Positions 11,711 through 51,044 of a stretch of DNA of 64,000 nt are shown piece by piece; position 1 is the first letter of the stretch; each line of letters starts with the position of its first letter. The notes below the pieces were generated by a model. That model was given only the letters and a program-made list of their open reading frames with translations. It did no database searches and had not been told where the DNA came from. The position numbers were made by a program, and so were the translations under genes. Source of the stretch: a virus; IMG/VR virus record IMGVR_UViG_3300012944_000025, positions 25,581 through 89,580 of that record; one strand, given 5' to 3'.

Positions 11711-11922
11711 GTGTTGTCGCTTTCTTGCCGTACGAGGCAGGTCATGCAATCGACATCGGCGCTGCGGGGACGGTCCTTGTCGTCCCAGCAGCTCCGCAAC
11801 CGACGACTGGCCCCGCAGGGAGCCCGCGCCGTGTACCAGCCGGCGTGGCGGTTGTCGCGACGCTGGTCGGAAAGGGGTAACCAGGCATGCGTGATGCCCG
11901 TCTTGTCGCGCCACGCGCTCAC
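11707..11922 (-). CDS. H-C-CxxC zinc-finger family protein
   Basis: DKTGITH...APCG...VDCMTCLV. Confidence 0.7.
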   Translation of the reverse strand: MSAWRDKTGITHAWLPLSDQRRDNRHAGWYTARAPCGASRRLRSCWDDKDRPRSADVDCMTCLVRQESDNT

Positions 11923-12069
11923 GGCGGCCTCCGGCAGCTGACGACCATCGATCCGCCGATCGTGACTGGCCGCATATCACCACAAAGCGGGACGGACCTC
12001 GGTCTCGAAGGTCGCACGATCGCCGCGCCACCCGCGATCGCAACCAACAGAAGGACTACTAGACCCGCG

Positions 12070-12977
12070 TTAGTCGGCGGCGGGGGTCTCATTGGGCATG
12101 ACCTCGACGCCGGCAATGATCTCCGCGATGACGCCCATGATCGCCTCGAAGGCTTCACTGCCGGGCGTCTGCCACTCCTTGGCGTCCCAGACGGTGACCT
12201 CGACCCATGGCAGAGTCAGGTTCTTCCGATGAAGCAGGTTGACCTGCTCCATCAGCGGGCGCTCCTCTGTCGGCATCCAGTCGACCGACACGCGGTTTGT
12301 TTCGGTCTCGATGACAACGAACGCAGTGCCGTCCTTGAAGTTCGCTCTGGTCGGCCCCGGCACCTTGGCGAACTTCGCTGTGCACTCGGTCACCATCGTG
12401 AGCGCCCGGTTGACCGCTTTGAGCACGATCTTCGCCTCGTTCCCTGGGATCTTGGTGAGGTGGTGCTTCGCGGGCACAAGGATGTTCGGCAGACTGTGGA
12501 ACATGCCCACCGCGACCTCGTGCGCGGTCTTGGGGATCCACTCCTCGACGGTGCCGTCGGCGGGCTCTTCTTTCTTGCTCATGATTCTCCTTTCAGCGCG
12601 GCTATCAGAGCGTCCGCGCGGGCGAGCGCGCCCTCGCGCTGTGTGATGAGATCGTCGATCTGGCTCGCTACGCTGGCGAGCAGCCGCTCGACGCTCAGCT
12701 GCGCGAACACCTCCGTGCGTCGCTCGCGTGAGCACGACGCGAGCACCACTTCGCCCGCGTCGCTCTCGACGATCAGTCGCCACTGCCCTCCGGTCTTGCC
12801 GAACACCAGCTTCTCGTTGTCGGTCAGGCCGACGGAGACGCGCACGCTGATGTGCAGGCGGAGGGCCTCCTCGATCTCGCCGATCAGCGTCGAGAGCTTC
12901 GAGTCCAACTCCTGAATTCTCCTGTTCTTCGATCCGACCGCGGCCAACACGTCGGGAAGTTTGGCGTTATCTGGCAT
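12070..12977 (-). other. Two hypothetical CDSs (12070-12582; 12579-12977 coiled-coil)
   Basis: SD-like AAGGA elements and an ATGA overlap. Confidence 0.55.
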
Positions 12978-12980
12978 GCT

Positions 12981-13004
12981 TATCCTTCGAGCGCCTCGCG
13001 CTCC
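12981..13004. repeat. Direct repeat, copy 1 (TATCCTTCGAGCGCCTCGCGCTCC)
   Basis: 23/24 identical to 13245-13268, the 3' end of the mazG-like gene; flanks the peptide precursor gene. Confidence 0.85.
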
Positions 13005-13009
13005 GCGCC

Positions 13010-13231
13010 TTACGGAGTCTGTCCCGTCGGTGGGACGACGGTCGCGGTGCCGCAGGTGTCCGTGTCATTGCAGGTCGCGCTGGCGCAGCCGACCGTGCAG
13101 TTGCGCCGCGTCACGCAACCGATGCTTGCCGGGCAACCAGCGACGGAACCTCCGCCGACGCGGGCGAGCTGCACGCTCCCGAGGTGAAGAATCGTCTCAC
13201 GCGCCAACACCAGACGTTTTGACTTGATCAT
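13010..13231 (-). CDS. RiPP (lanthipeptide-like) precursor peptide with double-glycine leader
   Basis: Leader KRLVLARETILHL...QLARVGG, then a core with 6 Cys, 9 Thr and 3 Ser. Confidence 0.72.
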   Translation of the reverse strand: MIKSKRLVLARETILHLGSVQLARVGGGSVAGCPASIGCVTRRNCTVGCASATCNDTDTCGTATVVPPTGQTP

Positions 13232-13243
13232 GTTGCTTCGTTC

Positions 13244-13630
13244 CTATCCTTCGAGCGCCTTGCGCTCCTCTTCCAGGTTGCGATTGAGGGCCTTGTGCGA
13301 GTCGAACTTGTCGCCGTACCGCACCTTGAGCTTCGCGATGTTCCGCTCGTGCGCCTCGGAGATGGAGCGCTTGATCGCGTGAAGCATCACGGCCTGGTAC
13401 CAGGACAGGTCCCCGTTCTCCTCGAGGATGTTGACCTCGTCGAGCGCCTTGCCGTAGATGATGTGCTTCTTCAGCGCGTCGGCCAGCTCGCCGACCTCGC
13501 TCGACATGCCGAGCACGGCGTGGATCAGACGGGCGACGACGACGTCGTGATCATGATCCCCTCCGAGCCTGACGAAGTCCGGGGTACTTTCGGTGCGCAG
13601 GGCGTCCTCTTGGTACTGGTTGTCGTTCAT
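13244..13630 (-). CDS. MazG-like nucleotide pyrophosphohydrolase
   Basis: LIHAVLGMSSEVGELADALKK...EENGDLSWY...NIAKLKVRY. Confidence 0.88.
   Translation of the reverse strand: MNDNQYQEDALRTESTPDFVRLGGDHDHDVVVARLIHAVLGMSSEVGELADALKKHIIYGKALDEVNILEENGDLSWYQAVMLHAIKRSISEAHERNIAKLKVRYGDKFDSHKALNRNLEEERKALEG
13245..13268. repeat. Direct repeat, copy 2 (TATCCTTCGAGCGCCTTGCGCTCC)
   Basis: Encodes the ERKALEG end of MazG; matches 12981-13004. Confidence 0.85.
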
Positions 13631-13634
13631 GCGA

Positions 13635-13651
13635 TGTTTATCCCATGAGCA
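13635..13651. promoter_or_regulatory. Palindromic operator-like site TGTTTA-N5-TGAGCA
   Basis: Directly upstream of the mazG ATG; matches the consensus. Confidence 0.55.
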
Positions 13652-13678
13652 AAGCACCCCGTCACATGCTTATGCCAA

Positions 13679-15594
13679 CTATTCGAGGTCGTCCTCGGGT
13701 CCGAGCGGGCCCTGGTTGTGGCGATGCGCAGCTCGCGTCGCGGCTGCCATCGCATCGTTGGTCTGCCGGGTCAGCTTGCTGACGTGCGCCTGCAGCTCGG
13801 ACATGCTGGTTCTCGCGGCGTCGAGGTTTGCCTTGGCGATCGCGTTGCGCCGATCGTCGGCGTACCTCGCGTCCGTCCAGTCCCGGATTAGCTCGAGCAT
13901 GCCGATCACCTGGACCTGATCGAGCACGTGCCCGCCGCGGACGCGCTTGACCAGTCCGTCGATGAACTGGCTCCTGCCGGTGTTCAAGGCGATCGCGACC
14001 TCCCCAGGGACCGCATAGGTCACGGGGCTGTCGGACACGGTCGGCGTCTCAGTCTTCTCCTGCTTCTTCCTGCTCATCTCTTGTCGTCGACTTTCCGCGG
14101 GGAACCCGCGTTGGTTATTTCGATGTCCATCGGGCGAGGATCAGCTGTTCGAACGCCTTGGCGGTCGCTGGGTCCGCGCCCGCGTCGCGCAACATGCGCT
14201 TGATCTCGGCACGCGGCACGCCGTTGGGGTTGTCGTAAAGCTGGTGGAATTTCTCGTTCCATCCGACGAGCGGCTCGTACGTCAGGCTTGCCTTCACGCG
14301 CTTCTCGCACTCGCCCTTGCACTCGTCGCAGAGCGCCATCGCGCCCTTGCGGCCGTCGGGACCGGCTTCGACCTCGCGGGCGTACCAGGTCGGCTTCTTG
14401 GTGCAGCGGCCCCACTTCCCGCCGACGTCACCGCCCATGACCCAGGGGTTGTACGCTGACTTGATGTCGGCCTGGCACCGCTCGTGGTCGACGGGCTCGA
14501 GGGGCTTGGCCTTCTTGTCGTTCTTCGTCACTTGGTCTCCTCGTACGCGCGAAGCGCGGTCCACGCCGCAGCCTCAACGCCCTCCTGCGAGCCACCCAGC
14601 CGGCTGAGGGCTCGGAAGATCGCGAGCCATCGGCGGTTTCTCCGTGTGTTCTCCAGGCCCAGTTCCGGGACCAGCAGCTCAGGCATCGTCCATGTCCGAC
14701 GCTCCGATCGTCTCCTCCATCGTCCCCTCGTGCAGCTCATCGCCCTTGCCGCACTCGCAGGTCACCTTGTAGGTGAGGCTCGCGCCGAGGCGGGGCCGCT
14801 TGCCGCCCTCCTCGACCTGCTCGGGATCGTCACAGGTCGCGGTCAGCTCGCAGCCCTCCTTCCAGGTCCAGCCGCCGCCCTTCTTCTCGACGAGGTGCGC
14901 CTCGAGCTTGTCGTGATCAAGGGTGAACTCCTCCGACATCTCGAGCGACGCTTCCTTCATGGTCTCGCCGCAGCACTCGCTGTTCCGAGTAATCTGCACG
15001 GTCGCGTGGACGTTCCCAGTGACGGTTCCATCCTCCAGCACGAGGTCGAGGTGCTCGACCTCGAACGACTCCTCCTCGGGCTCCTGGAACTCCAGCGACG
15101 CGAACTTGTTGCAGCCGGGGCACTTGTTGGCCATCAGGCTTCCTTGTCGGGCTCGGGGTTGACCGCCGCCTTGTACGCCTCGCGCTCCTCCTTGGTGAGC
15201 GCGCTGAATGCCGGCGCGGCGATGCCGCTTCGGGCTCCATGCTCCGCGGCGCACAACGCGAACACCAGTGCGGCCTTCTCGAGGTCGTCGACCGCGGCGT
15301 CGTGGTTGGGCTTGTTCTTCGGCGTGTTCTTGGTGTGCGCGTGCTTGTGCGACGCGGCGCGCAGGGCTCGCCGCGCTGCCTGCAGGCGGAAGTACGGATC
15401 ATCGAGCTTCATGTCTTGCCCTTTCTGTGCTTGCTTCGGGCTCGAATCGCCGCGACGCGCTCTCCGATGTAGGCCACCGCGTTGAGTGAGCCGATCTTCG
15501 ACGGGTCGCGGCCGTCGCTCCAGTCCGTGTCGAGATAGGTGTCTATCGCCTCGACGAGGTGCTTGGGCAGGCGAATGGTCACGGTGTTGGGCAT
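13679..15594 (-). other. Run of hypothetical CDSs (13679-14077, 14115-14531, 14679-15134, 15134-15412, 15409-15594 possible RHH)
   Basis: Packed ORFs with Cys motifs; TVTIRLPKHLVEAID is RHH-like. Confidence 0.5.
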
Positions 15595-15595
15595 G

Positions 15596-15970
15596 TCATT
15601 CCTCCATGTCCCGAATGAACGGCCCGTGCTGCGCCTCGGTCCAGAAGCCGAGCCTTCGTCCGCCTTCGACGACGAACTCGACGCGTTGGCCCCTTCCGGA
15701 CTTCCGTGCCTTGGCGCTTACGACACGGGCCGCGAGCATCTCGGTTCTTCCGCCCACAGCGTCGATCTGGAACACGCGCAAGATGTACTCCCCGACGGTC
15801 TCCGCCCCCACCACCTCTATGGTGATTGGCGCCAGGCCATCAAGCACGAACAAGCTTTCCTTCAGTTCGACACCGACAAACCACACGCAGGTCGCGACTG
15901 TCTCCTGAATGGCGTTGATGGTCATCGGCGGGCCGCCGCTCTTCAGACGTACGGAATCGCCGGGCTTCAC
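15596..15970 (-). CDS. YodC/DUF2158-like N-terminal domain protein
   Basis: KPGDSVRLKSGGPPMTI...CVWF. Confidence 0.7.
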   Translation of the reverse strand: MKPGDSVRLKSGGPPMTINAIQETVATCVWFVGVELKESLFVLDGLAPITIEVVGAETVGEYILRVFQIDAVGGRTEMLAARVVSAKARKSGRGQRVEFVVEGGRRLGFWTEAQHGPFIRDMEE

Positions 15971-16175: not shown

Positions 16176-16946
16176 TCATTGTCGCTTTCCTTGCAGCTGA
16201 ATCAACGGAGGCCCCGCAACTCTCTTCTCTGAAGAGAAGCAGAACCTGCACGCCGCGCACGCGCCTTCGTGCTCGGCGCCGTCGCGGGCGGTGGCCGGGC
16301 AGGCGCGCGGCTCAGGATCCCACTGCGCCCGCCTGGACATCTTGTGCTCCTCGAACACGACGGACACCCAGCGCGGGACCTTGTCCTCCGGGCTCCTGCG
16401 CGCCCACGCCGCATAGAACTGCGGCCTGTTCTTCAGGACGAGCAGCCGTGTGGCCTCGGTGTTCGTCCGTGTCGTCGTGGAGTCCAAGCTGAGCATGACG
16501 TGCAGGTTCGGTAGGTTTGGTAACAAACCTGCCAGCTCGAGCTTCCGGGTCGCCACCCACACGGCCAACTCCGGGAACTCGACGGCGATGCACGTCGTGA
16601 AGAACACCGATCCCGGTTGGAGGTCGCCGACGCCGAACATCCGTACGAAGTTCTGTTTTTTCAAAACAGCTCTGGCGATGCGCCGGGCCTCGTGCCGGAG
16701 TACGGCCTTGTCGGCGGACGCGAAGAACGCCGCGTTGCGCGCCTGCGACGCGAGGGCCGCGTCGTACGTCAGGCGACCGAGGAGGCCGTAGCAGTACTCG
16801 GCGCAACCCTTGGTCGGCCTGCACGTCCGCGCGATGGCGACGTTGATCGAGCAGCCGGTCTTGGAGTTGGTGGAGAGGGACACCTCGAACGCGTCGGCGA
16901 GACCGAGCCGCGGCGTTCGACCGCGGATGACGGACAGACGGCTCAT
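16176..16946 (-). CDS. GP88-like (radical-SAM-related Fe-S) phage protein
   Basis: NSKT...TCRPTKGCAEYCY Cys triad; VRMFGVGD; C-terminal CP...CAACRFC. Confidence 0.6.
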   Translation of the reverse strand: MSRLSVIRGRTPRLGLADAFEVSLSTNSKTGCSINVAIARTCRPTKGCAEYCYGLLGRLTYDAALASQARNAAFFASADKAVLRHEARRIARAVLKKQNFVRMFGVGDLQPGSVFFTTCIAVEFPELAVWVATRKLELAGLLPNLPNLHVMLSLDSTTTRTNTEATRLLVLKNRPQFYAAWARRSPEDKVPRWVSVVFEEHKMSRRAQWDPEPRACPATARDGAEHEGACAACRFCFSSEKRVAGPPLIQLQGKRQ

Positions 16947-29626: not shown

Positions 29627-30078
29627 GTCACCCGGGGGCCAACGCGCGGGCGGTCGCCTTCGCGCGCGGGCAGATGCTTCCCCCGATCGGCTCGGTCGAG
29701 GATCGCGTCATGCGCGAGATGGTGTTCCGGGAGCGCTCCGAGCGCGTGGCGCACGTGCGCGCGATCGCGGCCATCGTAGCGCGGGTCGTGGGCCGGGACG
29801 CGGACAAACTCCTCGGAGACGTCGTATCCGAGTACGCGTCGGAGGTATTCCAGGAATCCTACGATCCCGTCGCGCTCGCGCGGAAGGCCCAGCGTCTGCG
29901 CGACGCGCAGGCTCAAATCCGGCGCCGGCGCGTGGAGGACGAGAACACGCTCAGGCGTCTCGACCGCATGGAGTTGCTCGGTCAGGATTTCGATCGCGTG
30001 AAGGGCCGAGAATTTGATAGCAATTCCAAGCCGATACAGCATAGCCTAAGATCTGAACGTGGCCGACGGGACCAGTAA
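29620..30078 (+). CDS. Tail assembly chaperone frameshift extension (gpT-like)
   Basis: -1 frame reads FLGHPGANARAVAFARGQMLPP...; no clear SD before the ATG at 29674. Confidence 0.65.
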   Translation, partial: FLGHPGANARAVAFARGQMLPPIGSVEDRVMREMVFRERSERVAHVRAIAAIVARVVGRDADKLLGDVVSEYASEVFQESYDPVALARKAQRLRDAQAQIRRRRVEDENTLRRLDRMELLGQDFDRVKGREFDSNSKPIQHSLRSERGRRDQ

Positions 30079-33000
30079 CGAGACCCTTCGCCAGATGCTG
30101 GCGGGGTTCAACAGCATGCAGTCGGCGCTGGGCTTGCTCCCGGTCGCGTCCGGATCACCGACGGTCGGAGTGGGCCAGCCCGTCGGCTCAGCCCCGATGC
30201 CGCCGCCTCCGCCGCACCCGTCCGAGGCCGCCATCGCGGCCATGCAGCGCCATAACGACATGACGCAGCAGACGCTGCAGGCGGCGCAGCAGACGCGCTA
30301 CCAGCCGCCACCGTCCGCGCCGACACCCTCGAGCGGCGGGCTCGGACAGTTCAACCCGTTCGTCGCCAATGCCCTCGGCGGCGGGGGCTCGGGCTACGGC
30401 CTCCCGAGCCCGGCGACGATGACGTCACCCGCTTACGGCATGTTCCGCCCGCCGCCGGCGATGGGCGGGATGCCGTTCGGCGGCCCGATGCGCCTGCCGT
30501 CCATCTTCAACCCGCTGGCCCCCGCCCTGTCGTCACCGCACTTCTCGACCCCGGGGATGCGATCGCTGCAGGTCATGCAGGGCCACGAATCGCAGGCGAT
30601 GGGCACGCTCGCCGGCGCGACAGAGTTCGGACTCGGGCTGGCGGGGTCCGTGGCGGGCGGCGCGCTGGGCTCACTGCTCGGGCCCGTCGGTGCGGTCGCG
30701 GGCTCGTGGCTGGGCGGGAAGCTCGGGCACGCCGCGAGCAACGTCATGGTGGGCACGACGGTGCAGGACGCGGCCCGCGCGAGGATGATCCAGAACACGA
30801 CCGCTCCGTTCATGGTCACCGGGTCCAGCCTCGGCCCGACGGGCCAGGGCATGAGCACCGACTCGGCGCTCCGCACGGCCCGCGGCGTCCGGCACATGGC
30901 GCACGACCTGGACTTCGAGCGGACCGGGTTCAACACCCAGGACGCCATGCGGATCATGGGTGGCGCGGCGCAGCACGGCCTGTTGACTGGCGCCCAGTCG
31001 CCCGAGGAGATCGTTCGCCGCGTAAAGGACGTCAGCAAGACCGTCAAGCTGCTGATGCAGGTGACCGGGGACCCCGACGTGCGATCGGCCCTCGCGTCCC
31101 TGGGCCAGATGCGAGACCTCGGCTTCCAGGGCCTGGGGTCTCAGTCGGCGGCGGTTGCCAACCGCGCCGCGTTTGCTCGCATGGCCGGCGTGTCGCAGGC
31201 GGCGATGCACGAGTCCTTCGGTCTGCCGGGCGCCATGATGGCCCAGCAGGTCGGCCTCGCGGGGTCCACCGGCTACGCCGCGGGCATGTCGGGCGGCGCG
31301 CTCGCGAACATCGCTGCGTCGTCCGGCTCGCTCAACGATCTCCAACTCGCTCGCGCGGGCGGTCGGTCGGGGCTCGGCCAGATCAACGCGCTCGCCCAGA
31401 TTTCCTCGATGCAGAGCGACGTGTACCTCGCCGCATCCCTTCGCAAAGGTAGCAAGGGCCTCGAGGTCGACATGGACGCCTACCGCAAGGCGCAGAGCAT
31501 GTCGGTGGGCGACGTCGCGCGCGAGGCGGCCGAGCGCATCCACAAAATGGGAGCGGAGGGCATCTTCGAGTGGCGGACGCGGCGCCAGGAGTTCAAGGAT
31601 CAGGTCGCGCAGAAGCTCTCGCCCCTCGAGATGGGGATGAACGTGGTGCGCCAGGCGCAGGGCCTCCAGCGGCAGGTGCCGGGCATGAACCTCGGCTCCG
31701 CGCTGTTCGCCACCGTGCAGTCGACCGCCGTTGGCGCCGGGATGAGCGAGGAGCAGGCCGAGCAAACCGCGCGGTCCCTCGAGCTGCAGTTCACCGACCG
31801 GAAGTACTGGGAGGGTCAGAAGCAGCAGCTGAGAGCGCAACGACGGACCGCGATCGATGAGCAGCGCAGCCGCTTTGGGCAGTTCGCGACCCAGGACTTC
31901 GGGGACCGCGTGGACCGCCTGGGGCGGATGGGCATGCTTCGCGCCTCCGACAGGATCGCCTCGCCGTTCCAGCGCCTCGCCGACGGGTTCCGCAGGGTTC
32001 GCGAGGGCGAGGAGGCCGCGGGCTACGGCGAGCACATCTCGCGGCTCTCGGGCGTGGCGGTCATCGGCGACGACGCGGATCGGCGGATGATGCACGCGGC
32101 CGGCGGGCGTGGGTTCAGCGCGGCCTACGCGTCCGGCCTGGGTGACGACCCCCTCGGACGGGATCAGGGTCCGCTGGGCGCCTCCTGGTCGCGCCAGATG
32201 AATCGGATGGGCGGGGCCCTGGGGCTCACCGGAACCAGCGGGGCGAATCGCGTCGCCGCCCTGGCCAGCGAATCGAGGGGCATGTTCGCGACGCCGTTCG
32301 GCATCCACCCGTTCAAGTCGTTCGGCAACGTCGACGACGCGTTCGCGCGCGTGCAGGACGTGGCGGCCGCGGGCTCCGCGGTCCTGGCCTCCGACAGCTT
32401 CGACCTGGGCAAGCGCAAGGCGCTCATCGCGCGGATGGGCGCTCACTCAGGCGGCGTCAGCGCGGGCGCGGTGCTGCAGTCCGCGACCAGTGCGCTCGTT
32501 ACGCGGATCGACGGCCTGGCCGCGAGCGTGGCAGGTCCCGAGACCGGCGCGGCGCTCTCACAGAGCGATCTCAAGAACGCGTTCATCAAGGGCGCCGCGG
32601 ACCGCGGGATGAACGCCCAGGAGGCCGCGAAGATGTTTGACTCCAACCCGGGCATCGCCGCCGACATGGTCAAGGCCGTGATGTCGTCCGGGACCGCGAA
32701 GCAGAAGGAGGTGCTCGGCAAGTCGGTCGAGATCGGCACCAAGCTCGGTGCGGTCAACATGACGAGGACTCGTGAGGGCCTACGGGACGCGGTGAGGAAT
32801 CGGCTGTCCGCGGCGGGGCTCAACGAGCAGTACGCCAGCTTCAACGAGCACGGATTCCGCGGCGGAGGATACGCCGCAAGCGACAAGACCCTGACGGAGC
32901 TGGGCTCGGTCGTCGCGCACCACTCGCAGGAGGAGGTGGCCGTCGCCGCGGCGCTGGCGGCGCAGGCGTCGGGGGACCCCGCGCAGCGAAAGAAGGGCGA

Positions 33001-33673
33001 CCAGGCGCTCACCGCCCTGCGCACCCAGCTCGGCGACAAGCGCGTGGACGAGCTGACCTCGACCGCGCAGGACACGATTCTCAAGGGCGCGTCGGGGGAT
33101 CTGAAGACCGCGCTGGTGCGGGTCGCCGCGGAGGGCCAAGGCGGCAACGTGACCAAGCGTGTCGGCGCCGTGTACGAGGCGATCGGCATGAAGAAGCGCG
33201 GGGCGGCCACGGACGCGCTGATGGACAGGCTGGGCTCCATCAGCTCGAACAAAGACGTCGCGGGGATGGCCGATCCGCTCGAGGCGATTCGTGCCCTGAG
33301 CGGCTCCGACCTCGACCGCCTCGAGGAGGATGACCCGGAGACGGCGAAGCTCCTCCGGGCCGCTGCGGGCGGGGACAAGAAGGCGTACGAGGCGCTGCTC
33401 GACAGGTCCGCGCCCTCGCAGCGCGAGCACCGCGCCGGCAGTCGCGTGTCGGCCATCGACAAGCAGGTCGCCAAGGTCGACGAGATGATCGCCGCAACGT
33501 CCCCCGGCGACGACACCGCGGGCCTGCAGGCCGAGACCGGCAAGCTGTTCGCAGACTCGGTCAAGACGTTCGCGGACGCGGTCAAGGACTTCAAGGGCGC
33601 CGGCCAGGCCGACAACCTGAGCAAGAGCAGCCCGTGGTTCCAGTCGATGATTCCGGGCGCGGGAGGTCGTTGA
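30059..33673 (+). CDS. Tail tape measure protein
   Basis: 1204 aa, Ala/Gly/Gln/Met-rich helical protein with glycine-zipper segments, directly after the chaperone pair. Confidence 0.78.
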   Translation: MADGTSNETLRQMLAGFNSMQSALGLLPVASGSPTVGVGQPVGSAPMPPPPPHPSEAAIAAMQRHNDMTQQTLQAAQQTRYQPPPSAPTPSSGGLGQFNPFVANALGGGGSGYGLPSPATMTSPAYGMFRPPPAMGGMPFGGPMRLPSIFNPLAPALSSPHFSTPGMRSLQVMQGHESQAMGTLAGATEFGLGLAGSVAGGALGSLLGPVGAVAGSWLGGKLGHAASNVMVGTTVQDAARARMIQNTTAPFMVTGSSLGPTGQGMSTDSALRTARGVRHMAHDLDFERTGFNTQDAMRIMGGAAQHGLLTGAQSPEEIVRRVKDVSKTVKLLMQVTGDPDVRSALASLGQMRDLGFQGLGSQSAAVANRAAFARMAGVSQAAMHESFGLPGAMMAQQVGLAGSTGYAAGMSGGALANIAASSGSLNDLQLARAGGRSGLGQINALAQISSMQSDVYLAASLRKGSKGLEVDMDAYRKAQSMSVGDVAREAAERIHKMGAEGIFEWRTRRQEFKDQVAQKLSPLEMGMNVVRQAQGLQRQVPGMNLGSALFATVQSTAVGAGMSEEQAEQTARSLELQFTDRKYWEGQKQQLRAQRRTAIDEQRSRFGQFATQDFGDRVDRLGRMGMLRASDRIASPFQRLADGFRRVREGEEAAGYGEHISRLSGVAVIGDDADRRMMHAAGGRGFSAAYASGLGDDPLGRDQGPLGASWSRQMNRMGGALGLTGTSGANRVAALASESRGMFATPFGIHPFKSFGNVDDAFARVQDVAAAGSAVLASDSFDLGKRKALIARMGAHSGGVSAGAVLQSATSALVTRIDGLAASVAGPETGAALSQSDLKNAFIKGAADRGMNAQEAAKMFDSNPGIAADMVKAVMSSGTAKQKEVLGKSVEIGTKLGAVNMTRTREGLRDAVRNRLSAAGLNEQYASFNEHGFRGGGYAASDKTLTELGSVVAHHSQEEVAVAAALAAQASGDPAQRKKGDQALTALRTQLGDKRVDELTSTAQDTILKGASGDLKTALVRVAAEGQGGNVTKRVGAVYEAIGMKKRGAATDALMDRLGSISSNKDVAGMADPLEAIRALSGSDLDRLEEDDPETAKLLRAAAGGDKKAYEALLDRSAPSQREHRAGSRVSAIDKQVAKVDEMIAATSPGDDTAGLQAETGKLFADSVKTFADAVKDFKGAGQADNLSKSSPWFQSMIPGAGGR

Positions 33674-34632: not shown

Positions 34633-35039
34633 TCGCCCTCGAGGTCGCCCTGGCGCGGGTGCTCGGCCCATACGGCATCGAGCAGCTGCGGACCCGGTTC
34701 CTATTCTCCGTGGTGGACAGTCGCAACGTCTCCGATGGCGTGCTGGTCGCCGCGCAGATGGCTCTCGAGACGGAGATCGGCGTGATTCTGACAAAGGTGA
34801 TCGCGCCGTCGCCGAGCGTCCGAGGTACCGTGATCACGTCTCGGCGCCGGTTTCTCGACGTCGACAACGACCTCCGTGCGAACAGGTTCCTCATCGAACC
34901 GGCTCTCGACGATCTCTCGGGCCTGGGTGCGCCCGATCCCTACGTGGGCCTCCTTCGACGGCACCTCGCCGGTGACTACCCGCGATACCGGGTGTGCGCC
35001 ACGGCGGCCGTGCTCTCCCTCGCGGCGGCATTGTCATGA
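34629..35039 (+). CDS. Hypothetical protein in the tail operon
   Basis: GTGA/ATGA coupled at both ends. Confidence 0.55.
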   Translation: MIALEVALARVLGPYGIEQLRTRFLFSVVDSRNVSDGVLVAAQMALETEIGVILTKVIAPSPSVRGTVITSRRRFLDVDNDLRANRFLIEPALDDLSGLGAPDPYVGLLRRHLAGDYPRYRVCATAAVLSLAAALS

Positions 35040-38000
35040 GCGAGTTCTCGTCCAGCCTCCCGCACGGCGCCGCCGCGCTCGTATATATCAACGGGATCGA
35101 AGTGCCCGTGGTCCGCGTCTCGCGGAGGTACGGTGTCTGGCAGGTGCCCGAGGTCCAGGTCTCGATGGTGCCCGACCCCGTGCTCACGCGACTCGGCGCC
35201 GAAGACCGCGTGCAGCTCGAAGTGTTCTACCTCGACGACACCGCCGTCGACCCGAGCGTCGTCCCCCAGTTCCGCCTGTGGTTCGACGGTGAGATCACCG
35301 GATGGGGATATCAGAGCCTGTCCTCCGGTCGCGTCATCACCCTGACCGCGGTCGCTCAGATCGCGATCTTCACGCAGCTGTTCGTCCAGTTCCTGACGAC
35401 GTTCGACGATCTGCTCGGACACAGCACGCTGCCCGGCGCGGACGCGACCGGCATCGGCGTCCCAACCAGCCAAATCGTGTTTCCGTTCTCGCTGTTCAAG
35501 CAGGGCTTGATCTCGGGAGGCGGGCTCGCGCAGGACGCCTCGTCCATCGTCCGCCCGTTCGACTTCCTGTACAACGTGATCCGCAACATGATCGGGGCTC
35601 AGGTCCCGCACGAGCAGCAGACGATCCCGGCGGCGAACTTCTTCTCCCGGTGGTCGCGTCTCACCAACTTCCACAACCGATTTGTTGCTTCGCCGTTCTT
35701 CGATGAGATAGTCGACAACCCCAACATCTTCCCGGTCCTTCGCGCCCTACAAAACGTCTCGGCCGTCGACACCATCGCCAGGAACCTCATTCCTAACGTG
35801 CAGAACTCCGGGTCCATATGGGACATGCTCCAGCTGGTCTTTCAGACCATGCTGTTCGAGATCGCGATGGTCCCGTCGATGCCGCTGGTCGCGACGTCTC
35901 TTGCGAGCGGCCTGGTGCAGCAGACCAACTTCTCCGATCACGTCCTCGCGTTCGACCCCGCGCGGATCCCGAACGGCGCGTTCGTCGCGGCCCTGGCCGG
36001 CGAGAGCCGGAAGGCCACGCCGCGCAGGATACCGAGTTACTTCCCCAAGCCGCAGACCCTGTTCGGCATCGCACCGAGCTGCAACGTGATCTTCCCGTCG
36101 CAGCTGGTCGCGCTCGCGTACGACGAGAACTACGCGACCCAACCGACAAGGCTCTACTTCAACGACGAGACGCTGCTCAACCTGCTCCGCATCCCGCGTG
36201 GCGGGTACAGGGAGACCGTGCACAACGCGCTGACGATCGCCTACCCGCCGGAGGCCGATGCGGCAATGCACGCGCGAGCGCGCGGGGGCGGCAAGCTCAA
36301 CGGAAAGAACCTGCTGCTGTGGCCCGAGGAATTCTTCAAGGGCCCCGTGCTCGACCGCAGGGACGTCCCACCGTGGCTGTTCTTTCTCAAGCAGAGCGAG
36401 CTGATGAGCACGCCGCCCACGGGTCGAACGGCGGACGGCGCGGTGGAGACGCCGCCGGCGCCCGCGCGCACGCCGCAGGTTCCAGCGCCGGCCGCGGTCT
36501 CCGTTCCCGCGGGCACGATGGTCACCGCGGGTCGCGTCGGCACGCAGGCACCCGACGGCACCCGCGTGTTCGGTCGCGCGGTCGAGAATCTTCGTCCCAA
36601 GGTCGCGCGGCTGAGCGTCGTGACCGGGATCCCCACCGACTTCCTGCTCGCCTGGATATCCCAGGAATCCGACGGGAGCATCCGCACCGTGACCCGCCTC
36701 AACGAGCGCGGCTTCTTCCAGATCATGGGTCCGCACGTCTCGGGCGGCACGGCGACGACGCTCAGGGAGTCCGAGGCGGGGATGATTGGGCTGGGGCTCG
36801 ACGCGACGGGCACGGGCCCCGACGACACAAACGCGCGCCTGTCGACAGATGAGGACTTCTCGCTGCAGTCCGGTGTTAAGCTCGTGCAGTTCTACCGTCG
36901 GTTCGCGAACCGGATAGCGATCGAGCAAGGCCTGTCCTGGACCGAGGCAGACATGTGGCGACTCACCAAGCTCGGCCACAACGGCGTCGGGTTCGCGAAG
37001 CAGACGGTTCAGGCCGCGAAGGCCGTGCTTGGCCGGGCCCCGATCTCGTGGGAGGAGATGTACAAAGCCGCGGTGCCGACCCTGTCGGCCGGCGTGGCCA
37101 ACGTCGTGAACGGGGCCACGGCTGTGGGCGGCGTGGTCGCGGGCGCCTCCGGAGCGATGATCACCAAGAGCGATCCCCGCCCGACGAGGGCTCCCGTCGC
37201 GACGACGGCGCCGAGAACATCGACGGACGTTGTGTCCACGCTCGTGGCGCCTCAGGTTCCCGCTGCGGCGCCGCAGGTCAGCGAATCCGTAACCGCGTCG
37301 CTCGAGAGCGCGGAGACGGTTTATCAGCTCTACGCCAAATACGAATTCTTTCGCGAGCGGTACGCCAAGCGGTCGGGCTCAGCGCAGATCGCGTGGAACC
37401 CGTACGTCGTCGCCGGCTTCCCCGCTGTTATCTTCGACCACCGATCGTCCCGCGTCGACATCGCGTGCTACGTGACGACCGTGCAGGACGTCATCGACCT
37501 CAGCGCGACCTCAGCGCGAAAGTCGACGACGATATCGTTCCTATACGGGCGCCAGCTGCAGGAGATGTTCGACCTCATGGCCCGGCAGTTCGCCGACGGC
37601 GAGGCGTCGGCGGGCTCGGCGCCGGCCGAGCCCATCCGGGACGTGCGCAAGGTCATCCAGTCATTCTCCCAGGCGGAGACCTACTACCAGCGGCTGTTCT
37701 ACGGCGGGCAGCCCTTGTTCAATAAGGACGCGGCATTCGACTTCCGCAAGATCATCGGATACGCGCCCGACGTCGCCGGCGGCTCTCCGGTCACAATATT
37801 CGTGGATGGTCCCGAAGAGGCTGATCAGGACGACCTCGCGACGGCGCAGGTCCAGCTTGCGCAGCTGACCAGCGATCGAGCGGACAAGACCGCGCAGCTG
37901 GCGAGCGTCAGCGCCGGGCTCTCCACGGCGTCCGCGCAGGCCGCCGCCCTGAACGCGACCGCGTCCAACACCGCAGCGACGCAGCTGGCCGCGCTGGGCA

Positions 38001-38614
38001 GGCTGGTGTCCGACGGCGCGACCATGGTCTCGCAGCTGCGCGCCGACCTGGTAGCCATCGACGCCAGGATCCAGAAGGCGCTCTCCGTGATTCAGTCCAC
38101 CCAGGACGTCACGCGCACCGCGCAGGTCACGCACAACCTGGTCGGCAATCGCGAGCTGGTCCCGCTGGCCTCCGCAGCGCCCCTGTTCAGCGGATACGAC
38201 GACGCGATGCGGTACGCGTGGCGACCGATATGCACACTCGACGAGTACGTCGTGTTCCACGACGCCGCGGGTGAGGGCTTGGTTTCCGCGGCCGGCGCCG
38301 CGGGTAGTCTCGGCGCGACCTACTACTCGAGGATTCGTCGGACGACCGCGCCGACGAGCGAGGAGCAAGCCTCGCTTCGCGCGCCCGGCGGCGCCGACGG
38401 CCTGACGCCGGCGCAGGCAGCGACGGATCCGCAGGTCGCGGCGCGGCTCGGAGCAACGGACGCGGTCACCGGCCAGTCAGCGCAGGTCCCGTCGATAGCG
38501 GCCACCGTTCCCGGCCTGACCAACGCGAGCTTCCCACAGGTCCGCGCGGACTGGGATCAGGCCCTCCTGGCCTACCGCGCCAACGTTCGCTCGGTAAAGG
38601 CGCCTCGCACATGA
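35036..38614 (+). CDS. Baseplate hub-like protein with internal lytic transglycosylase (SLT-like) domain
   Basis: Hub-like N-terminus (VYINGIEVPV); Pro-rich linkers flank FLLAWISQESDG...RGFFQIM. Confidence 0.7.
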   Translation: MSEFSSSLPHGAAALVYINGIEVPVVRVSRRYGVWQVPEVQVSMVPDPVLTRLGAEDRVQLEVFYLDDTAVDPSVVPQFRLWFDGEITGWGYQSLSSGRVITLTAVAQIAIFTQLFVQFLTTFDDLLGHSTLPGADATGIGVPTSQIVFPFSLFKQGLISGGGLAQDASSIVRPFDFLYNVIRNMIGAQVPHEQQTIPAANFFSRWSRLTNFHNRFVASPFFDEIVDNPNIFPVLRALQNVSAVDTIARNLIPNVQNSGSIWDMLQLVFQTMLFEIAMVPSMPLVATSLASGLVQQTNFSDHVLAFDPARIPNGAFVAALAGESRKATPRRIPSYFPKPQTLFGIAPSCNVIFPSQLVALAYDENYATQPTRLYFNDETLLNLLRIPRGGYRETVHNALTIAYPPEADAAMHARARGGGKLNGKNLLLWPEEFFKGPVLDRRDVPPWLFFLKQSELMSTPPTGRTADGAVETPPAPARTPQVPAPAAVSVPAGTMVTAGRVGTQAPDGTRVFGRAVENLRPKVARLSVVTGIPTDFLLAWISQESDGSIRTVTRLNERGFFQIMGPHVSGGTATTLRESEAGMIGLGLDATGTGPDDTNARLSTDEDFSLQSGVKLVQFYRRFANRIAIEQGLSWTEADMWRLTKLGHNGVGFAKQTVQAAKAVLGRAPISWEEMYKAAVPTLSAGVANVVNGATAVGGVVAGASGAMITKSDPRPTRAPVATTAPRTSTDVVSTLVAPQVPAAAPQVSESVTASLESAETVYQLYAKYEFFRERYAKRSGSAQIAWNPYVVAGFPAVIFDHRSSRVDIACYVTTVQDVIDLSATSARKSTTISFLYGRQLQEMFDLMARQFADGEASAGSAPAEPIRDVRKVIQSFSQAETYYQRLFYGGQPLFNKDAAFDFRKIIGYAPDVAGGSPVTIFVDGPEEADQDDLATAQVQLAQLTSDRADKTAQLASVSAGLSTASAQAAALNATASNTAATQLAALGRLVSDGATMVSQLRADLVAIDARIQKALSVIQSTQDVTRTAQVTHNLVGNRELVPLASAAPLFSGYDDAMRYAWRPICTLDEYVVFHDAAGEGLVSAAGAAGSLGATYYSRIRRTTAPTSEEQASLRAPGGADGLTPAQAATDPQVAARLGATDAVTGQSAQVPSIAATVPGLTNASFPQVRADWDQALLAYRANVRSVKAPRT

Positions 38615-48743: not shown

Positions 48744-51044
48744 TCACGCGATGGAGCAGGCGCCGCCCTGGCAGGCGATCTCGCCGGCGAGGTCGGTGCC
48801 GTCCTCGACCTCGACGATCGACAGGTAGTCGATCGGCTCGTACTTGGCGACCAGCTCGTTGAAGCGGCGCTCCTGGTCGTCGGTCACCACGGCCTCGAAC
48901 GGCATGAACGGCAGGACCGGGTCCTCGGGGAGCAGCGAGACGCCCGTGAAGCTGTCGCGATGGGTCCACAGATAGTCGGCGACTTGGTCCCACTCGTGAG
49001 GCGCGACGTTGACCGTGTTGCTGACGTTGTGGTTGAGGCCCGGAGATCTTCCGGAGTCGTCGGTTCCGGGAAGCACCCAGTTCTGCTGCGTTGAGCGCAC
49101 CATCTCGAGGAACTCGATTGCGCCGATGTCCTTCTTGATGATCGCACCGTCGGGCGCTTGGACTGGGAATTCGATCACGTACTTGCCATCGGGCTTACGC
49201 ACGCACATGTGCGGGTTCGCGGCCTTGAAGGCCTGGAACACCGTCTCGTACTCGTCGGCGGTCACGCGGCGGACGTAGCGCCGAGCGTGATGCGCGTGGT
49301 GGCCGCTGCCGACGCTACCCAGCTCGAGAGACGTCGTGCCGCTGGGCTTGACGCACGTGGTGCGCGCCGCCGGGTTGATGCCGATCTGGGCCGCGTAGTC
49401 GGCGTTCCACTCCTTGATGCGCCCGGCGATCGCGCGCTGGTACTCGGGATTGCACGAGATGTGAGGCGCGTCGAGCATGCCCGTCATGCCGATGCCGAGC
49501 AGCGCGTCGCGCCGCGCGATCAGCTCGCTGGCGAAGCCCAGGTACGGGAAGCTCGTGTAGCCCGCCTGGAGCGTGCCGATCAGCGTGGCCGCGCGAGCTG
49601 CCTCGACGAAGTCCTCGAACGAGGTCAGCTTTGCGGCGTTGATCTCGCAGAGGTTGCAGAACGCCCAACCGGTGACGAACAAGTCGCGCGTGCCGCGGAA
49701 CGCGTTCGCGATGCTCGGCATGTTGGTCTCCGCCCAGGCGATGACCGAGTCGTCGATCTTCAGCCGAGGGTCGAGCCCGATCTCGGCGCACGGGTTCGTC
49801 CCGTAGTGGCTCTGCTCGAGGAACACGAAGCCCGGCTCGCCGAACTCGCGGATCATCTCGAACACGCGCTTGAACTGCGCTTCCTTCGTCTCGTGACGCA
49901 GCAGCGCCACAGAGTTGTTGGCGTAGGCGAAGTACGGCTCGCGATCCTCCTTCCACCAGTCGCCCGTCTTACACACCATCATCTCGCCGTCGTCGGGTGA
50001 GAACAGCGCAATCATGGCGCTGCGGCGAATCCCGCCGGACAGCACGGCGCCGGCTGCGTGGCACAGGATGCGGTGGCACTCGATCGGGCGGAGCTTGCGG
50101 CCCTGCGCACCGTGCAACACCCTACGGATCGCTTCGAGAGCCGCCTTGAGCTTGATGTGTCCAGGCGCGCGGCCGCCTGACGTCTTGAGCGGAGACCCCG
50201 CCGGACGGATCAGGTGGTACGAAAACTCGACGTGCGTACCTTCGACGAAACTTTCGACCAGTGCGTCAACCGCGTCGGCCCAGCCCTCGATCGTGTCCGC
50301 GATGACGTGGTGCACGACGCGCTTTTCGTCGACGTAGCCGATTCGAGGGAGCTTGCCGACGTGCTCGAACTGCACCGAGTAGCCCACGCCACAGCCCGAC
50401 AGGAGCAGAAACATCGCCTCGGCGAACGCGCGGGCCCTGTCGATGAGCGTGAACGAGCAGTTGTACATCCTGTTATGGTTGGTCTCGATCGCCGCGCCGC
50501 CGAACTGCATCGAGCGCATCGACGGCAGGACGCGCTTGTCGCGAACCAGGCCGAACGCCCACGCGATCTCCTCGCGCAGTCCCTTCACGCTCGCGTACCT
50601 GCGCTGGTGCATGTCCTCGGCGCGAGCGACGGTCTCGTCGTAGACCTCACGGCGAAGCAGGGACGGCTGATAGCGCGCGTACTTGCTCGCGTGGATGTAG
50701 TTGGCGATCGCGCTAGGGTCCAGGGCACGCCGGGCACGCCGGGCGTCCGTCCTACGCTGCCGATAGATGATGTACGCCTTGGCGACCGCGAACTCCCGAA
50801 ATGACATCAACGCGATTTCGACCGCGTCCTGGACGTCTTCCACGGTGACCTCGACGTCGCCGAGGGCTCTCGACGCCTTCATCGCCACGCTGCGAAGCGT
50901 CGCGTCCTTCGGCGGCGGGCCCTTCACCTCGATCCACGCCTTGCGCACGGCGTCCTCTATCTTGGCGACGCTGAACGGTTGCGTGGTCACGCCATCGCGC
51001 TTTCGCACCGTGGGCGGTGAGGTGAACAGGGCGAGTTCTTCCAT
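48744..51044 (-). CDS. nrdJ: Class II (B12-dependent) ribonucleotide reductase with N-terminal ATP cone
   Basis: VRKRDG ATP cone, PSMRSMQFGG, NCSF, GGIRRSA, TNPCAEI, CNLCE, TTCVKPSGT, C-terminal ACQGGAC. Confidence 0.92.
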   Translation of the reverse strand: MEELALFTSPPTVRKRDGVTTQPFSVAKIEDAVRKAWIEVKGPPPKDATLRSVAMKASRALGDVEVTVEDVQDAVEIALMSFREFAVAKAYIIYRQRRTDARRARRALDPSAIANYIHASKYARYQPSLLRREVYDETVARAEDMHQRRYASVKGLREEIAWAFGLVRDKRVLPSMRSMQFGGAAIETNHNRMYNCSFTLIDRARAFAEAMFLLLSGCGVGYSVQFEHVGKLPRIGYVDEKRVVHHVIADTIEGWADAVDALVESFVEGTHVEFSYHLIRPAGSPLKTSGGRAPGHIKLKAALEAIRRVLHGAQGRKLRPIECHRILCHAAGAVLSGGIRRSAMIALFSPDDGEMMVCKTGDWWKEDREPYFAYANNSVALLRHETKEAQFKRVFEMIREFGEPGFVFLEQSHYGTNPCAEIGLDPRLKIDDSVIAWAETNMPSIANAFRGTRDLFVTGWAFCNLCEINAAKLTSFEDFVEAARAATLIGTLQAGYTSFPYLGFASELIARRDALLGIGMTGMLDAPHISCNPEYQRAIAGRIKEWNADYAAQIGINPAARTTCVKPSGTTSLELGSVGSGHHAHHARRYVRRVTADEYETVFQAFKAANPHMCVRKPDGKYVIEFPVQAPDGAIIKKDIGAIEFLEMVRSTQQNWVLPGTDDSGRSPGLNHNVSNTVNVAPHEWDQVADYLWTHRDSFTGVSLLPEDPVLPFMPFEAVVTDDQERRFNELVAKYEPIDYLSIVEVEDGTDLAGEIACQGGACSIA

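What the first reader, a model, noticed from the sequence alone, without database searches (positions are those of the whole stretch)
13010..13231. Orphan phage-encoded RiPP (lanthipeptide-like) precursor peptide
Seen: a 73-aa ORF with leader MIKSKRLVLARETILHLGSVQLARVGG and core GSVAGCPASIGCVTRRNCTVGCASATCNDTDTCGTAT... (6 Cys, 9 Thr, 3 Ser). Known: KxLxLxxETI/LxxL resembles class I lanthipeptide leaders, and LxxVxGG is the double-glycine cleavage motif processed by C39 peptidase ABC exporters. No LanB/C/M, recognisable maturase or exporter is present in this window. Inference: the phage may supply only the substrate and use host maturation and export machinery to make a secreted modified peptide (signal or antimicrobial), or may use it as a decoy to titrate host RiPP enzymes.
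Basis: partly seen in the sequence, partly recalled or inferred. Interest (0 to 1): 0.85.

Follow-up and report, generated by a model that had tools for sequence, protein, structure and literature searches.

The report
Lone lanthipeptide-type precursor gene in phage
A large uncultivated soil phage carries a small, real-looking gene for a peptide built like the precursor of a ring-stitched bacterial antibiotic (lanthipeptide), but the assembled half of its genome has none of the enzymes needed to modify, cut or export it, so it probably depends on or interferes with host machinery; this is untested.

Summary
The 73-codon ORF at 13010-13231 (-) exists exactly as described. It sits in a same-strand operon just after a MazG-like gene of a large phage (IMG/VR record of 89,580 bp, CheckV 48% complete). 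Its leader is the only six-frame match to NCBIfam NF038153 (class I lanthipeptide leader L1a) in the record, but below the curated cut-off (14.7 vs 22 bits). An exhaustive HMMER search of 1.84 billion proteins gave one true homologue, an 85-aa metagenome peptide. That peptide passes NF038153 (29.8 bits) and shares the leader, the GG site and the first ten core residues. The leader has LxLxRx5L, then GGG with V-4, L-7 and L-12, the pattern read by C39 exporter peptidases. Each of the six Cys has Ser/Thr at -3 or -4. No LanB, LanC, LanM, rSAM, YcaO, C39, ABC or kinase gene is in the record. A near-identical phage contig from another sample keeps the gene (one conservative change) while the gene downstream is missing. 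The Myxococcota host, use of host enzymes and the decoy idea are untested, and half the genome is unseen. This scan has already noted similar lone precursors in at least eight other phage genomes. Verdict: a likely real new instance, of moderate interest.

The parts
13010..13231 (-). 73-codon precursor-like ORF (ATG 13231-13229, TAA 13012-13010)
   Evidence: GC3 is 0.77, the highest of the open frames here (neighbouring genes 0.83-0.88). A variant 72 of 73 identical (V65I) lies on a second, 111,323-bp contig.
13148..13231 (-). Leader, aa 1-28: LxLxRx5L (L7-L17), then GGG with V-4, L-7, L-12, I-15
   Evidence: NF038153 match over aa 4-28 to profile 8-32 of 32: 13.7 bits and 14.7 bits, cut-off 22. 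Motif as in Walker 2020. Positions -4, -7 and -12 as in Bobeica 2019. Residue positions read by hand.
13013..13147 (-). Core, aa 29-73: six [S/T]-x2-3-C units, then a Thr/Pro-rich tail
   Evidence: Hand count. The first ten core residues and Cys 33, 39, 45 and 49 are invariant against P0003.
13241..13245 (-). AGGAA Shine-Dalgarno-like site 9 nt before the ATG, overlapping the mazG stop codon
   Evidence: sequence; by inspection only
13244..13657 (-). MazG-like pyrophosphatase gene directly upstream (likely true start ATG 13630)
   Evidence: PHROG 229, E 2e-37. Pfam MazG 19.8 bits, below the cut-off of 22. Relatives start at the equivalent of 13630.
13245..13268 (.). Direct repeat, copy 1 (3' end of mazG)
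   Evidence: family D2, 23 of 24 identical to copy 2, spacing 264 nt
12981..13004 (.). Direct repeat, copy 2 (non-coding remnant of a mazG 3' end, just before the 132-aa ORF)
   Evidence: absent from the related contig
12584..13010 (.). 427-nt segment (repeat copy 2 plus 132-aa ORF 12579-12977) missing from a near-identical phage contig and replaced there by 6 nt
   Evidence: joint 12583->13011 in runs X1, X2 and X3 (one soil study)

Best explanation
The ORF is a real accessory gene of a large, probably virulent soil phage. It encodes a member of the L1a (LxLx[K/R]x5L...GG) class of lanthipeptide-type precursor peptides.

Shown: the ORF and its leader and core architecture; one true homologue that passes the curated leader model; retention of the gene in a second phage variant; and the absence of maturase or exporter genes in the 89.6 kb available.

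Inferred: it is co-transcribed with mazG in a same-strand gene string. After translation in the infected cell, the N-terminal LxLxRx5L box would recruit a host class I dehydratase and cyclase pair (LanB/LanC). These would dehydrate Ser/Thr and link them to the Cys 3-4 residues downstream, giving up to six small rings. A host C39-peptidase ABC exporter, reading V-4, L-7, L-12 and GG, would cut after G28 and export a 45-residue product, or lysis would release it. What the product does (antimicrobial, signal or interference) is unknown.
For: - ORF, frame and context. The gaps to the neighbouring same-strand genes are 12 and 32 nt, and no promoter- or terminator-like site lies on that strand.
- NF038153 lant_leader_L1a is the only NCBIfam hit (E 0.053). 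It is also the only six-frame hit in the record (E 0.0048, 14.7 bits). 0 of 5 related phage records hit at E<=1.
- phmmer against 1,835,955,588 proteins gave 6 hits at E<=1e-3: the ORF itself, P0003 (85 aa, E 2.9e-9, 62% identity over aa 3-54) and 4 long repetitive proteins.
- P0003 passes NF038153 (29.8 bits against 22, E 4.8e-7). Its precomputed Pfam hit is PF28317, which the Atlas names Lant_leader_dom.
- Alignment A1: 18 of 28 leader residues, the GG site, the first 10 core residues and 4 Cys are identical.
- Walker 2020 (passages read): class I LanAs of Bacteroidetes carry LxLxKx5L leaders that often end in GG, with a C39 protease often in the cluster.
- Variant P0007 (V65I) lies on a 111-kb contig that keeps mazG and the peptide gene but lacks the next gene. 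A 325-bp contig from a freshwater study covers 12979-13303 with 8 differences.
- No LanC, LanB-N, LanB-C, LanM, rSAM, YcaO, C39, ABC_tran or Pkinase in the record. The two ~1200-aa proteins of unknown family have no PDB relative.
Against: - The ORF itself is below the curated NF038153 cut-off (13.7-14.7 against 22 bits) and has no hit in the Pfam copy used here.
- Only one homologue exists, on a 1,298-bp contig whose context could not be fetched.
- Atlas look-alikes score 0.83-0.86, below the 0.9 level the tool treats as more than a lead, and only 4 of the 10 best named hits share the family.
- The record is 48% complete, so maturases could lie in the unseen half.
- The LanB, LanC and LanM searches had no positive control in the 14 control genomes.
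- The host is unknown. No host LanBC or PCAT was shown. NF038153 was found in 0 of 301 Gemmatimonadota genomes searched (no positive control).
- GC3 (0.77) is lower than in neighbouring genes.
- The related contig is about 98-99% identical here, so its intact ORF says little about selection.
- The six Cys could form disulfides instead of thioethers.
Confidence: 0.5

Rival explanations
1. It is a double-glycine-leader peptide that a host peptidase-containing ABC transporter cuts and exports but that carries no lanthionine rings. It would be a disulfide-rich bacteriocin-like or signalling peptide.
For: GG with V-4, L-7 and L-12 fits C39 recognition. Walker 2020 notes that GG leaders are common in several RiPP classes. 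The ORF's own score on the lanthipeptide leader model is sub-threshold. An even number of Cys (6) allows three disulfides.
Against: The best and only family match is the class I lanthipeptide leader, and the homologue passes it. The rSAM GG-leader model TIGR04149 scored only E 1.2 on P0003 and nothing on this ORF. Every Cys has Ser/Thr at -3 or -4 (hand count), which is not needed for disulfides. The N-terminal LxLxRx5L box is the motif Walker 2020 describes in class I LanA leaders.
Confidence: 0.15
2. It is a decoy or jammer. The phage makes a precursor mimic that occupies a host RiPP synthetase or exporter, for example a lanthipeptide-based anti-phage system, and no useful product is formed.
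For: Class I lanthipeptide clusters acting inside the cell against phages are reported in Actinobacteria (bioRxiv 10.1101/2024.06.26.600839, passages read; review PMC12360287). The gene sits among non-structural genes next to mazG, and the record has no enzymes of its own.
Against: The first ten core residues are fully conserved between the two family members, more so than the leader (18 of 28). That is not expected if only leader binding matters. The reported anti-phage lanthipeptides are restricted to Actinobacteria, and nothing links this phage to that phylum.
Confidence: 0.1
3. It is not a lone precursor: the cognate maturase and exporter genes lie in the roughly half of the phage genome that is not in this record.
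For: CheckV completeness is 48%. Phage-borne complete bacteriocin clusters exist, for example sublancin on SPbeta (bioRxiv 10.1101/2020.10.01.322628, passages read).
Against: RiPP precursors are normally adjacent to their enzymes, and here the neighbours are MazG and small unknown proteins. The distant complete relative G003 (184,915 bp) and four other relatives have no LanC or C39, though they also lack the peptide. Per, phage BGCs are mostly in temperate phages; no integrase was found in this record or in G003.
Confidence: 0.1
4. It is a captured fragment or chance ORF with no function: not translated, or neutral cargo at a mosaic junction.
For: The ORF lies at a recombination-prone junction: a 24-nt duplication of the mazG 3' end, a 427-nt indel next to it, and a variable slot in relatives. 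GC3 is lower than in neighbours. There are no expression data. Cys-rich ORFs are not rare in this GC-rich DNA: 6 of 579 pass the GG+Cys+Ser/Thr filter.
Against: Homology to P0003 at E 2.9e-9 at the protein level. Leader and core architecture are both intact. The ORF is kept when the adjacent gene is lost. It has an SD-like site and tight same-strand packing. The antisense frames contain stops or have lower GC3.
Confidence: 0.12

Closest known systems
Class I lanthipeptide precursors (LanA) with LxLxKx5L...GG leaders: NCBIfam NF038153 lant_leader_L1a / Pfam PF28317 Lant_leader_dom. Walker 2020 describes the motif in class I LanAs of Bacteroidetes (PMC7268733).
   Same: The leader box (with R for K), the GG end, a Cys plus Ser/Thr-rich core and a length of about 70 aa. 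The homologue P0003 passes the model.
   Different: This ORF is below the model's cut-off. It is encoded by a large phage, and no LanB, LanC or C39 transporter is nearby or anywhere in the 89.6 kb. The DNA is high-GC, unlike most Bacteroidetes. No chemistry has been shown.
Double-glycine leader peptides processed by C39 peptidase-containing ABC transporters (PCAT/AMS; LahT150, ComA; Bobeica 2019, PMC6363468)
   Same: GG at -2/-1 and hydrophobic V-4, L-7 and L-12.
   Different: Gln rather than Glu at -8 of the ComA consensus. No transporter gene in the record.
Phage-borne bacteriocin clusters such as sublancin on SPbeta (bioRxiv 10.1101/2020.10.01.322628)
   Same: A phage carries a gene for a precursor of a modified peptide.
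   Different: Those are complete clusters (precursor, enzymes, immunity, transporter), mostly on temperate phages. Here a lone precursor sits on a phage with no integrase found.
Precursors encoded away from a shared, substrate-tolerant synthetase (ProcM/prochlorosin type, as mentioned in PMC11118758)
   Same: A precursor without a neighbouring enzyme that must be served in trans.
   Different: There the enzyme is in the same genome. Here it would have to be in another organism's genome (the host).
Anti-phage class I lanthipeptides of Actinobacteria ('lanthiphages', bioRxiv 10.1101/2024.06.26.600839)
   Same: Class I lanthipeptide biology is linked to phage infection and acts inside cells.
   Different: Those are host-encoded full clusters that act against phages. 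This is a phage-encoded precursor only, and no link to Actinobacteria was shown.

Membership tests
Class I lanthipeptide precursor, L1a leader (NF038153 / PF28317) | Scores at or above the curated NF038153 cut-off (22 bits) | tested here: not met
   13.7 bits and 14.7 bits. The only true homologue, P0003, scores 29.8 bits.
Class I lanthipeptide precursor, L1a leader (NF038153 / PF28317) | LxLxKx5L box in the leader (Walker 2020) | tested here: met
   L7-x-L9-x-R11-x5-L17, with R for K, the same as in P0003. It is 1 of 579 ORFs in the record with this motif.
Class I lanthipeptide precursor, L1a leader (NF038153 / PF28317) | Core with Cys and Ser/Thr placed to form (methyl)lanthionine rings | tested here: met
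   6 Cys, each with Ser/Thr at -3 or -4 (hand count). Four of these units are conserved in P0003. This shows compatibility only; no chemistry was done.
Class I lanthipeptide precursor, L1a leader (NF038153 / PF28317) | Encoded with LanB dehydratase and LanC cyclase | tested here: not met
   PF04738, PF14028 and PF05147 were absent in six-frame searches of the 89,580-bp record. Caveats: no positive control for these models, and the record is 48% complete.
Class I lanthipeptide precursor, L1a leader (NF038153 / PF28317) | Dehydrated residues and thioether rings in the product | not testable with these tools
   Needs mass spectrometry of the peptide made with candidate enzymes.
Double-glycine (PCAT/C39) leader peptides | GG/GA/GS at -2/-1 with hydrophobic residues at -4, -7 and -12 | tested here: met
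   G27-G28, V25, L22 and L17. P0003 has I, L and L.
Double-glycine (PCAT/C39) leader peptides | C39-peptidase ABC transporter in the locus | tested here: not met
   PF03412 and PF00005 were absent from the record, and both models rang in the control genomes.
Nisin/gallidermin-type lipid II binders | SxxxCTP(G/S)C motif at the core N-terminus (as quoted in Walker 2020) | tested here: not met
   The core starts S-x3-C-P-A-S-x2-C. The ring sizes are similar but the motif is absent (for the motif).
Bacterial lipoprotein (lipobox V-A-G-C at aa 30-33) | Positively charged n-region followed by an uninterrupted hydrophobic h-region before the lipobox | tested here: not met
   By inspection: R11, E12, H16, Q21 and R24 interrupt the stretch between K5/R6 and C33. 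No signal-peptide predictor was available.

The most novel reading that the evidence does not exclude
Large lytic soil phages carry lone LanA-type genes as a distinct class of accessory gene. During infection the phage peptide would take over the host's class I lanthipeptide synthetase and its C39 exporter. The result would be either a phage-specified ring peptide (a weapon or signal released from the infected cell) or a block on a host RiPP pathway that would otherwise hinder the phage. This ORF would be one member of a recurrent, undescribed phage strategy. This scan has noted similar lone precursors in at least eight other phage genomes (unchecked notes), and five literature searches found no description.
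Probability: 0.3. Interest if true: 0.8.

Novelty: new variant of a known kind. Interest (0 to 1): 0.5.

Why it matters
RiPP precursors are thought of as parts of self-contained bacterial gene clusters. A virus that carries only the substrate would mean that natural-product pathways can be reprogrammed in trans by an infecting genome. It would also add a new kind of phage accessory gene. In practice, it could give a way to find promiscuous LanB/LanC/PCAT systems and new ring-peptide scaffolds. If instead the peptide blocks a host pathway, it would be a counter-measure against chemical (RiPP-based) anti-phage defence. On the present evidence this instance is a plausible but unproven member of that picture.

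Tried and rejected
Searches for relatives that found nothing
- Word-indexed protein search: only the ORF itself. With alignment A1: only the ORF and P0003, out of 208 candidates.
- Pattern scans with A1 in genome contigs, metagenome contigs and viral contigs found no relative. The same held with P0003 alone in viral and metagenome contigs. The context of P0003 therefore stays unknown.
- tblastn against 50,697 phage records gave only chance-level hits at E>=4. P0003 against 72,556 plasmids gave nothing.
- blastn of 4 kb around the ORF against phage records: no match.
- Peptide against 5 related phage records: 0 of 5. tblastn of P0001 and P0003 against all 11 stored loci gave real hits only on the two loci from the phage's own record; the best other hit was E 0.009 over 30 aa.
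- In one search I listed only ORFs with GC3>0.7. That hid every ORF of the low-GC loci L007 and L008. One search covers them.

Other family and structure searches
- Pfam and PHROGs had nothing for the ORF.
- Rfam had nothing in 12400-13800.
- A PDB profile search with A1 gave only chance hits.

Host
- TerL matches isolated phages at 28.5% identity or less.
- No tRNA genes in the window.
- The RNR hit lies on a Gemmatimonadaceae MAG contig whose flanks do not match the phage. The first tblastx listing was noise.
- NF038153 was found in 0 of 301 Gemmatimonadota genomes, with no positive control.
- I could not obtain a genome handle in Myxococcota or Bacteroidota.

Expression
- No RNA holder was listed among the 11 runs.

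Readings considered and rejected
- Lipoprotein signal: the VAGC lipobox lacks a hydrophobic h-region in front of it.
- Zn-finger kinship with the phage's CxxC mini-genes: there is no CxxC spacing.
- Plus-strand ORFs 12852-13187 and 12961-13227: lower GC3 and antisense to the operon.
- The 264-bp cassette as a self-contained mobile unit: the related contig keeps the peptide gene but lacks the second repeat copy and the next gene. The repeat therefore looks like a mosaic recombination scar.

Papers
- Supplementary files of papers were not opened. The supplementary leader-motif figures and family tables of Walker 2020 could bear on how typical this leader is.

Full report
**What is there**

The window is bases 25581-89580 of an IMG/VR virus record of 89,580 bp. 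The record has 64.8% G+C and a CheckV completeness of 48%. It is a tailed phage. It encodes a gpA-type large terminase, a baseplate-J-like protein, a family A DNA polymerase, a DinG-type helicase, an ATP-cone reductase and an M23 peptidase. No tyrosine integrase was found in it or in a complete distant relative of 184,915 bp. The best TerL matches among 50,697 isolated phages are 28.5% identical or less, to phages of about 180-187 kb. A large, probably virulent phage of unknown host is therefore the best description.

It lies 12 nt after the stop of a MazG-like gene (PHROG 229, E 2e-37) and 32 nt before the next same-strand ORF. An AGGAA sits 9 nt before its ATG. No promoter- or terminator-like site lies on that strand. 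Its GC3 is 0.77, the highest among the open frames at this place but lower than the 0.83-0.88 of its neighbours.

**Is it a member of a known family?**

Against NCBIfam the only hit is NF038153, lant_leader_L1a ('class I lanthipeptide'). It covers aa 4-28 against profile positions 8-32 of 32 and scores 13.7 bits, with a curated cut-off of 22. In a six-frame search of the whole record this ORF is the only match at E<=10 (E 0.0048, 14.7 bits). Five related phage records had none at E<=1. The Pfam copy used here and PHROGs gave nothing.

An exhaustive phmmer search of 1.84 billion representatives returned six proteins at E<=1e-3. These were the ORF itself, four long repetitive proteins that match by composition, and one true homologue, P0003. 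P0003 is 85 aa, from a JGI metagenome contig of 1,298 bp, with E 2.9e-9 and 62% identity over aa 3-54. P0003 passes NF038153 (29.8 bits, E 4.8e-7). Its precomputed Pfam hit is PF28317, which the Atlas names Lant_leader_dom.

The pairwise alignment shows 18 of 28 leader residues identical. The GG and all ten residues that follow it are identical, and so are four Cys with their upstream Ser/Thr. After that the tails diverge. The Atlas look-alikes (PF28317-bearing clusters at 0.83-0.85) fall below the level the tool treats as more than a lead.

**Anatomy**

The leader contains L7-x-L9-x-R11-x5-L17. Walker et al. 2020 (PMC7268733, passages read) describe LxLxKx5L as the leader motif of many class I LanAs of Bacteroidetes. 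They add that such leaders often end in Gly-Gly and that a C39 protease is often encoded in the cluster.

Alignment with P0003 implies cleavage after G28. The leader then has V at -4, L at -7, L at -12 and I at -15. Bobeica et al. [quoted passage not shown] The Glu at -8 of the ComA consensus is Gln here.

In the core every Cys has Ser or Thr three or four residues upstream: S29/C33, S36/C39, T41/C45, T46/C49, S51/C54 and T57/C60. This spacing is what small lanthionine rings need. It is not the SxxxCTP(G/S)C lipid II motif quoted by Walker 2020. The V-A-G-C that resembles a lipobox is not preceded by a hydrophobic stretch.

**Lone or not?**

Six-frame searches of the 89,580 bp found none of the following:
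- LanC (PF05147)
- LanB N or C domain (PF04738, PF14028)
- LanM (PF13575)
- radical SAM
- YcaO
- C39 peptidase
- ABC ATPase
- protein kinase

The C39, rSAM, ABC, YcaO and kinase models all rang in control genomes. The LanB, LanC and LanM models had no control hit above cut-off, so those blanks are weaker. Two proteins of about 1,200 aa and unknown family, in the tail/baseplate block, have no PDB relative. Five related phage records, two of them complete, lack LanC and C39, but they also lack the peptide. Half of this phage's genome is unseen, so 'lone' is shown for the available half only.

**Population and evolution**

The 90% cluster of the peptide has a second member, P0007 (V65I), on a 111,323-bp Logan contig. 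I laid the contigs of four runs on 11800-14800. That contig is present in three runs of one soil study. It carries mazG and the peptide gene contiguously, with few differences: one is a synonymous third-position change at 13148 and another is the change behind V65I. It skips 12584-13010, which is replaced by 6 nt. The skipped segment holds the second copy of a 24-nt direct repeat (23 of 24 identical) and the 132-aa ORF. In that phage the peptide gene therefore runs straight into the next gene, which starts at 12582. A 325-bp contig from a freshwater study covers 12979-13303 with 8 differences.

The downstream repeat copy would read as the last seven codons and stop of a mazG. I read it as the scar of a recombination that joined a 'mazG-peptide' genome to a 'mazG-132-aa gene' genome, not as the end of a mobile cassette.

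Distant relatives (43-63% identical MazG) keep the backbone order of GP88-family gene, mazG and a small membrane protein. Between mazG and the membrane protein they hold unrelated small ORFs. The peptide gene thus occupies a variable accessory slot. The two variants are about 98-99% identical here, so the intact ORF in both says little about selection. The protein-level match to P0003 is the better argument that it codes.

**What it most likely does**

The most economical reading is a real L1a-type precursor that can only be matured in trans. The steps would be:
- leader recognition by a host LanB/LanC pair;
- dehydration and ring closure;
- cutting after GG by a host C39 exporter, or release at lysis.

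None of these steps was or could be tested here. The rivals are:
- an exported but unmodified disulfide peptide;
- a decoy for a host RiPP enzyme or exporter, an idea made more interesting by reports of class I lanthipeptides acting inside Actinobacteria against phages, but disfavoured by the strong conservation of the core start;
- maturases in the missing half of the genome;
- a non-functional passenger.

I could not obtain a genome handle in that phylum. The one bacterial lead, a Gemmatimonadaceae MAG contig, matches only in the reductase gene. 0 of 301 Gemmatimonadota genomes had the leader family (no positive control).

**Known or new**

Complete bacteriocin clusters on phages, mostly temperate ones, are known, for example sublancin on SPbeta (bioRxiv 10.1101/2020.10.01.322628, passages read). 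Five full-text searches surfaced no paper describing lone lanthipeptide-type precursors in phage genomes. Only the listings and the named passages were read, and supplements were closed.

This scan itself has noted similar lone precursors in at least eight other phage genomes (further notes). Those are unchecked AI notes and not independent evidence. One of them pairs such a peptide with a Ser/Thr kinase, and no kinase is present here. This instance is therefore a further, somewhat weaker example of a recurring and apparently undescribed pattern. It is weaker because the score is sub-threshold, there is only one homologue, the genome is half-assembled and the host is unknown.

Noticed in passing
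window 12584-13010: A 427-nt segment (a remnant of a mazG 3' end plus the 132-aa ORF 12579-12977, no family hit) is replaced by 6 nt in a near-identical 111-kb phage contig from three soil runs. This is a fresh mosaic junction right next to the peptide gene.
   Followed up: partly
window 13635-13651: The palindrome TGCTCA-N5-TAAACA lies 5 nt upstream of ATG 13630. That ATG, not GTG 13657, is the likely mazG start, because relatives begin there. The site fits the 17-bp motif that another note (e1-6116558) reports at several gene starts.
   Followed up: partly
window 11919-13657; L002 and L004 4400-5200: The slot between mazG and a conserved small membrane-protein gene (11919-12158) holds different, unrelated small ORFs in each related phage. 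It is a hot spot for accessory genes.
   Followed up: partly
window 16176-16946: A GP88-family protein (Pfam PF17338, E 4e-15) is conserved at 48-55% identity and in the same order in three distant relatives. It is a useful backbone marker of this phage group.
   Followed up: no
window 30059-33670 and 34994-38611: Two proteins of about 1,200 aa in the tail/baseplate block have no Pfam or PDB relative. One has a short match to a PHROG of unknown function and the other has no PHROG hit.
   Followed up: partly
window 48747-51044: An ATP-cone ribonucleotide reductase-like protein is 46% identical to one on an 8.5-kb contig of a Gemmatimonadaceae MAG. The flanks there do not match the phage, so it gives no host call.
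   Followed up: yes
window 15599-15970: A small protein with a DUF2158 domain (PF09926, E 2e-7; PHROG 3261) in the same operon string.
   Followed up: no
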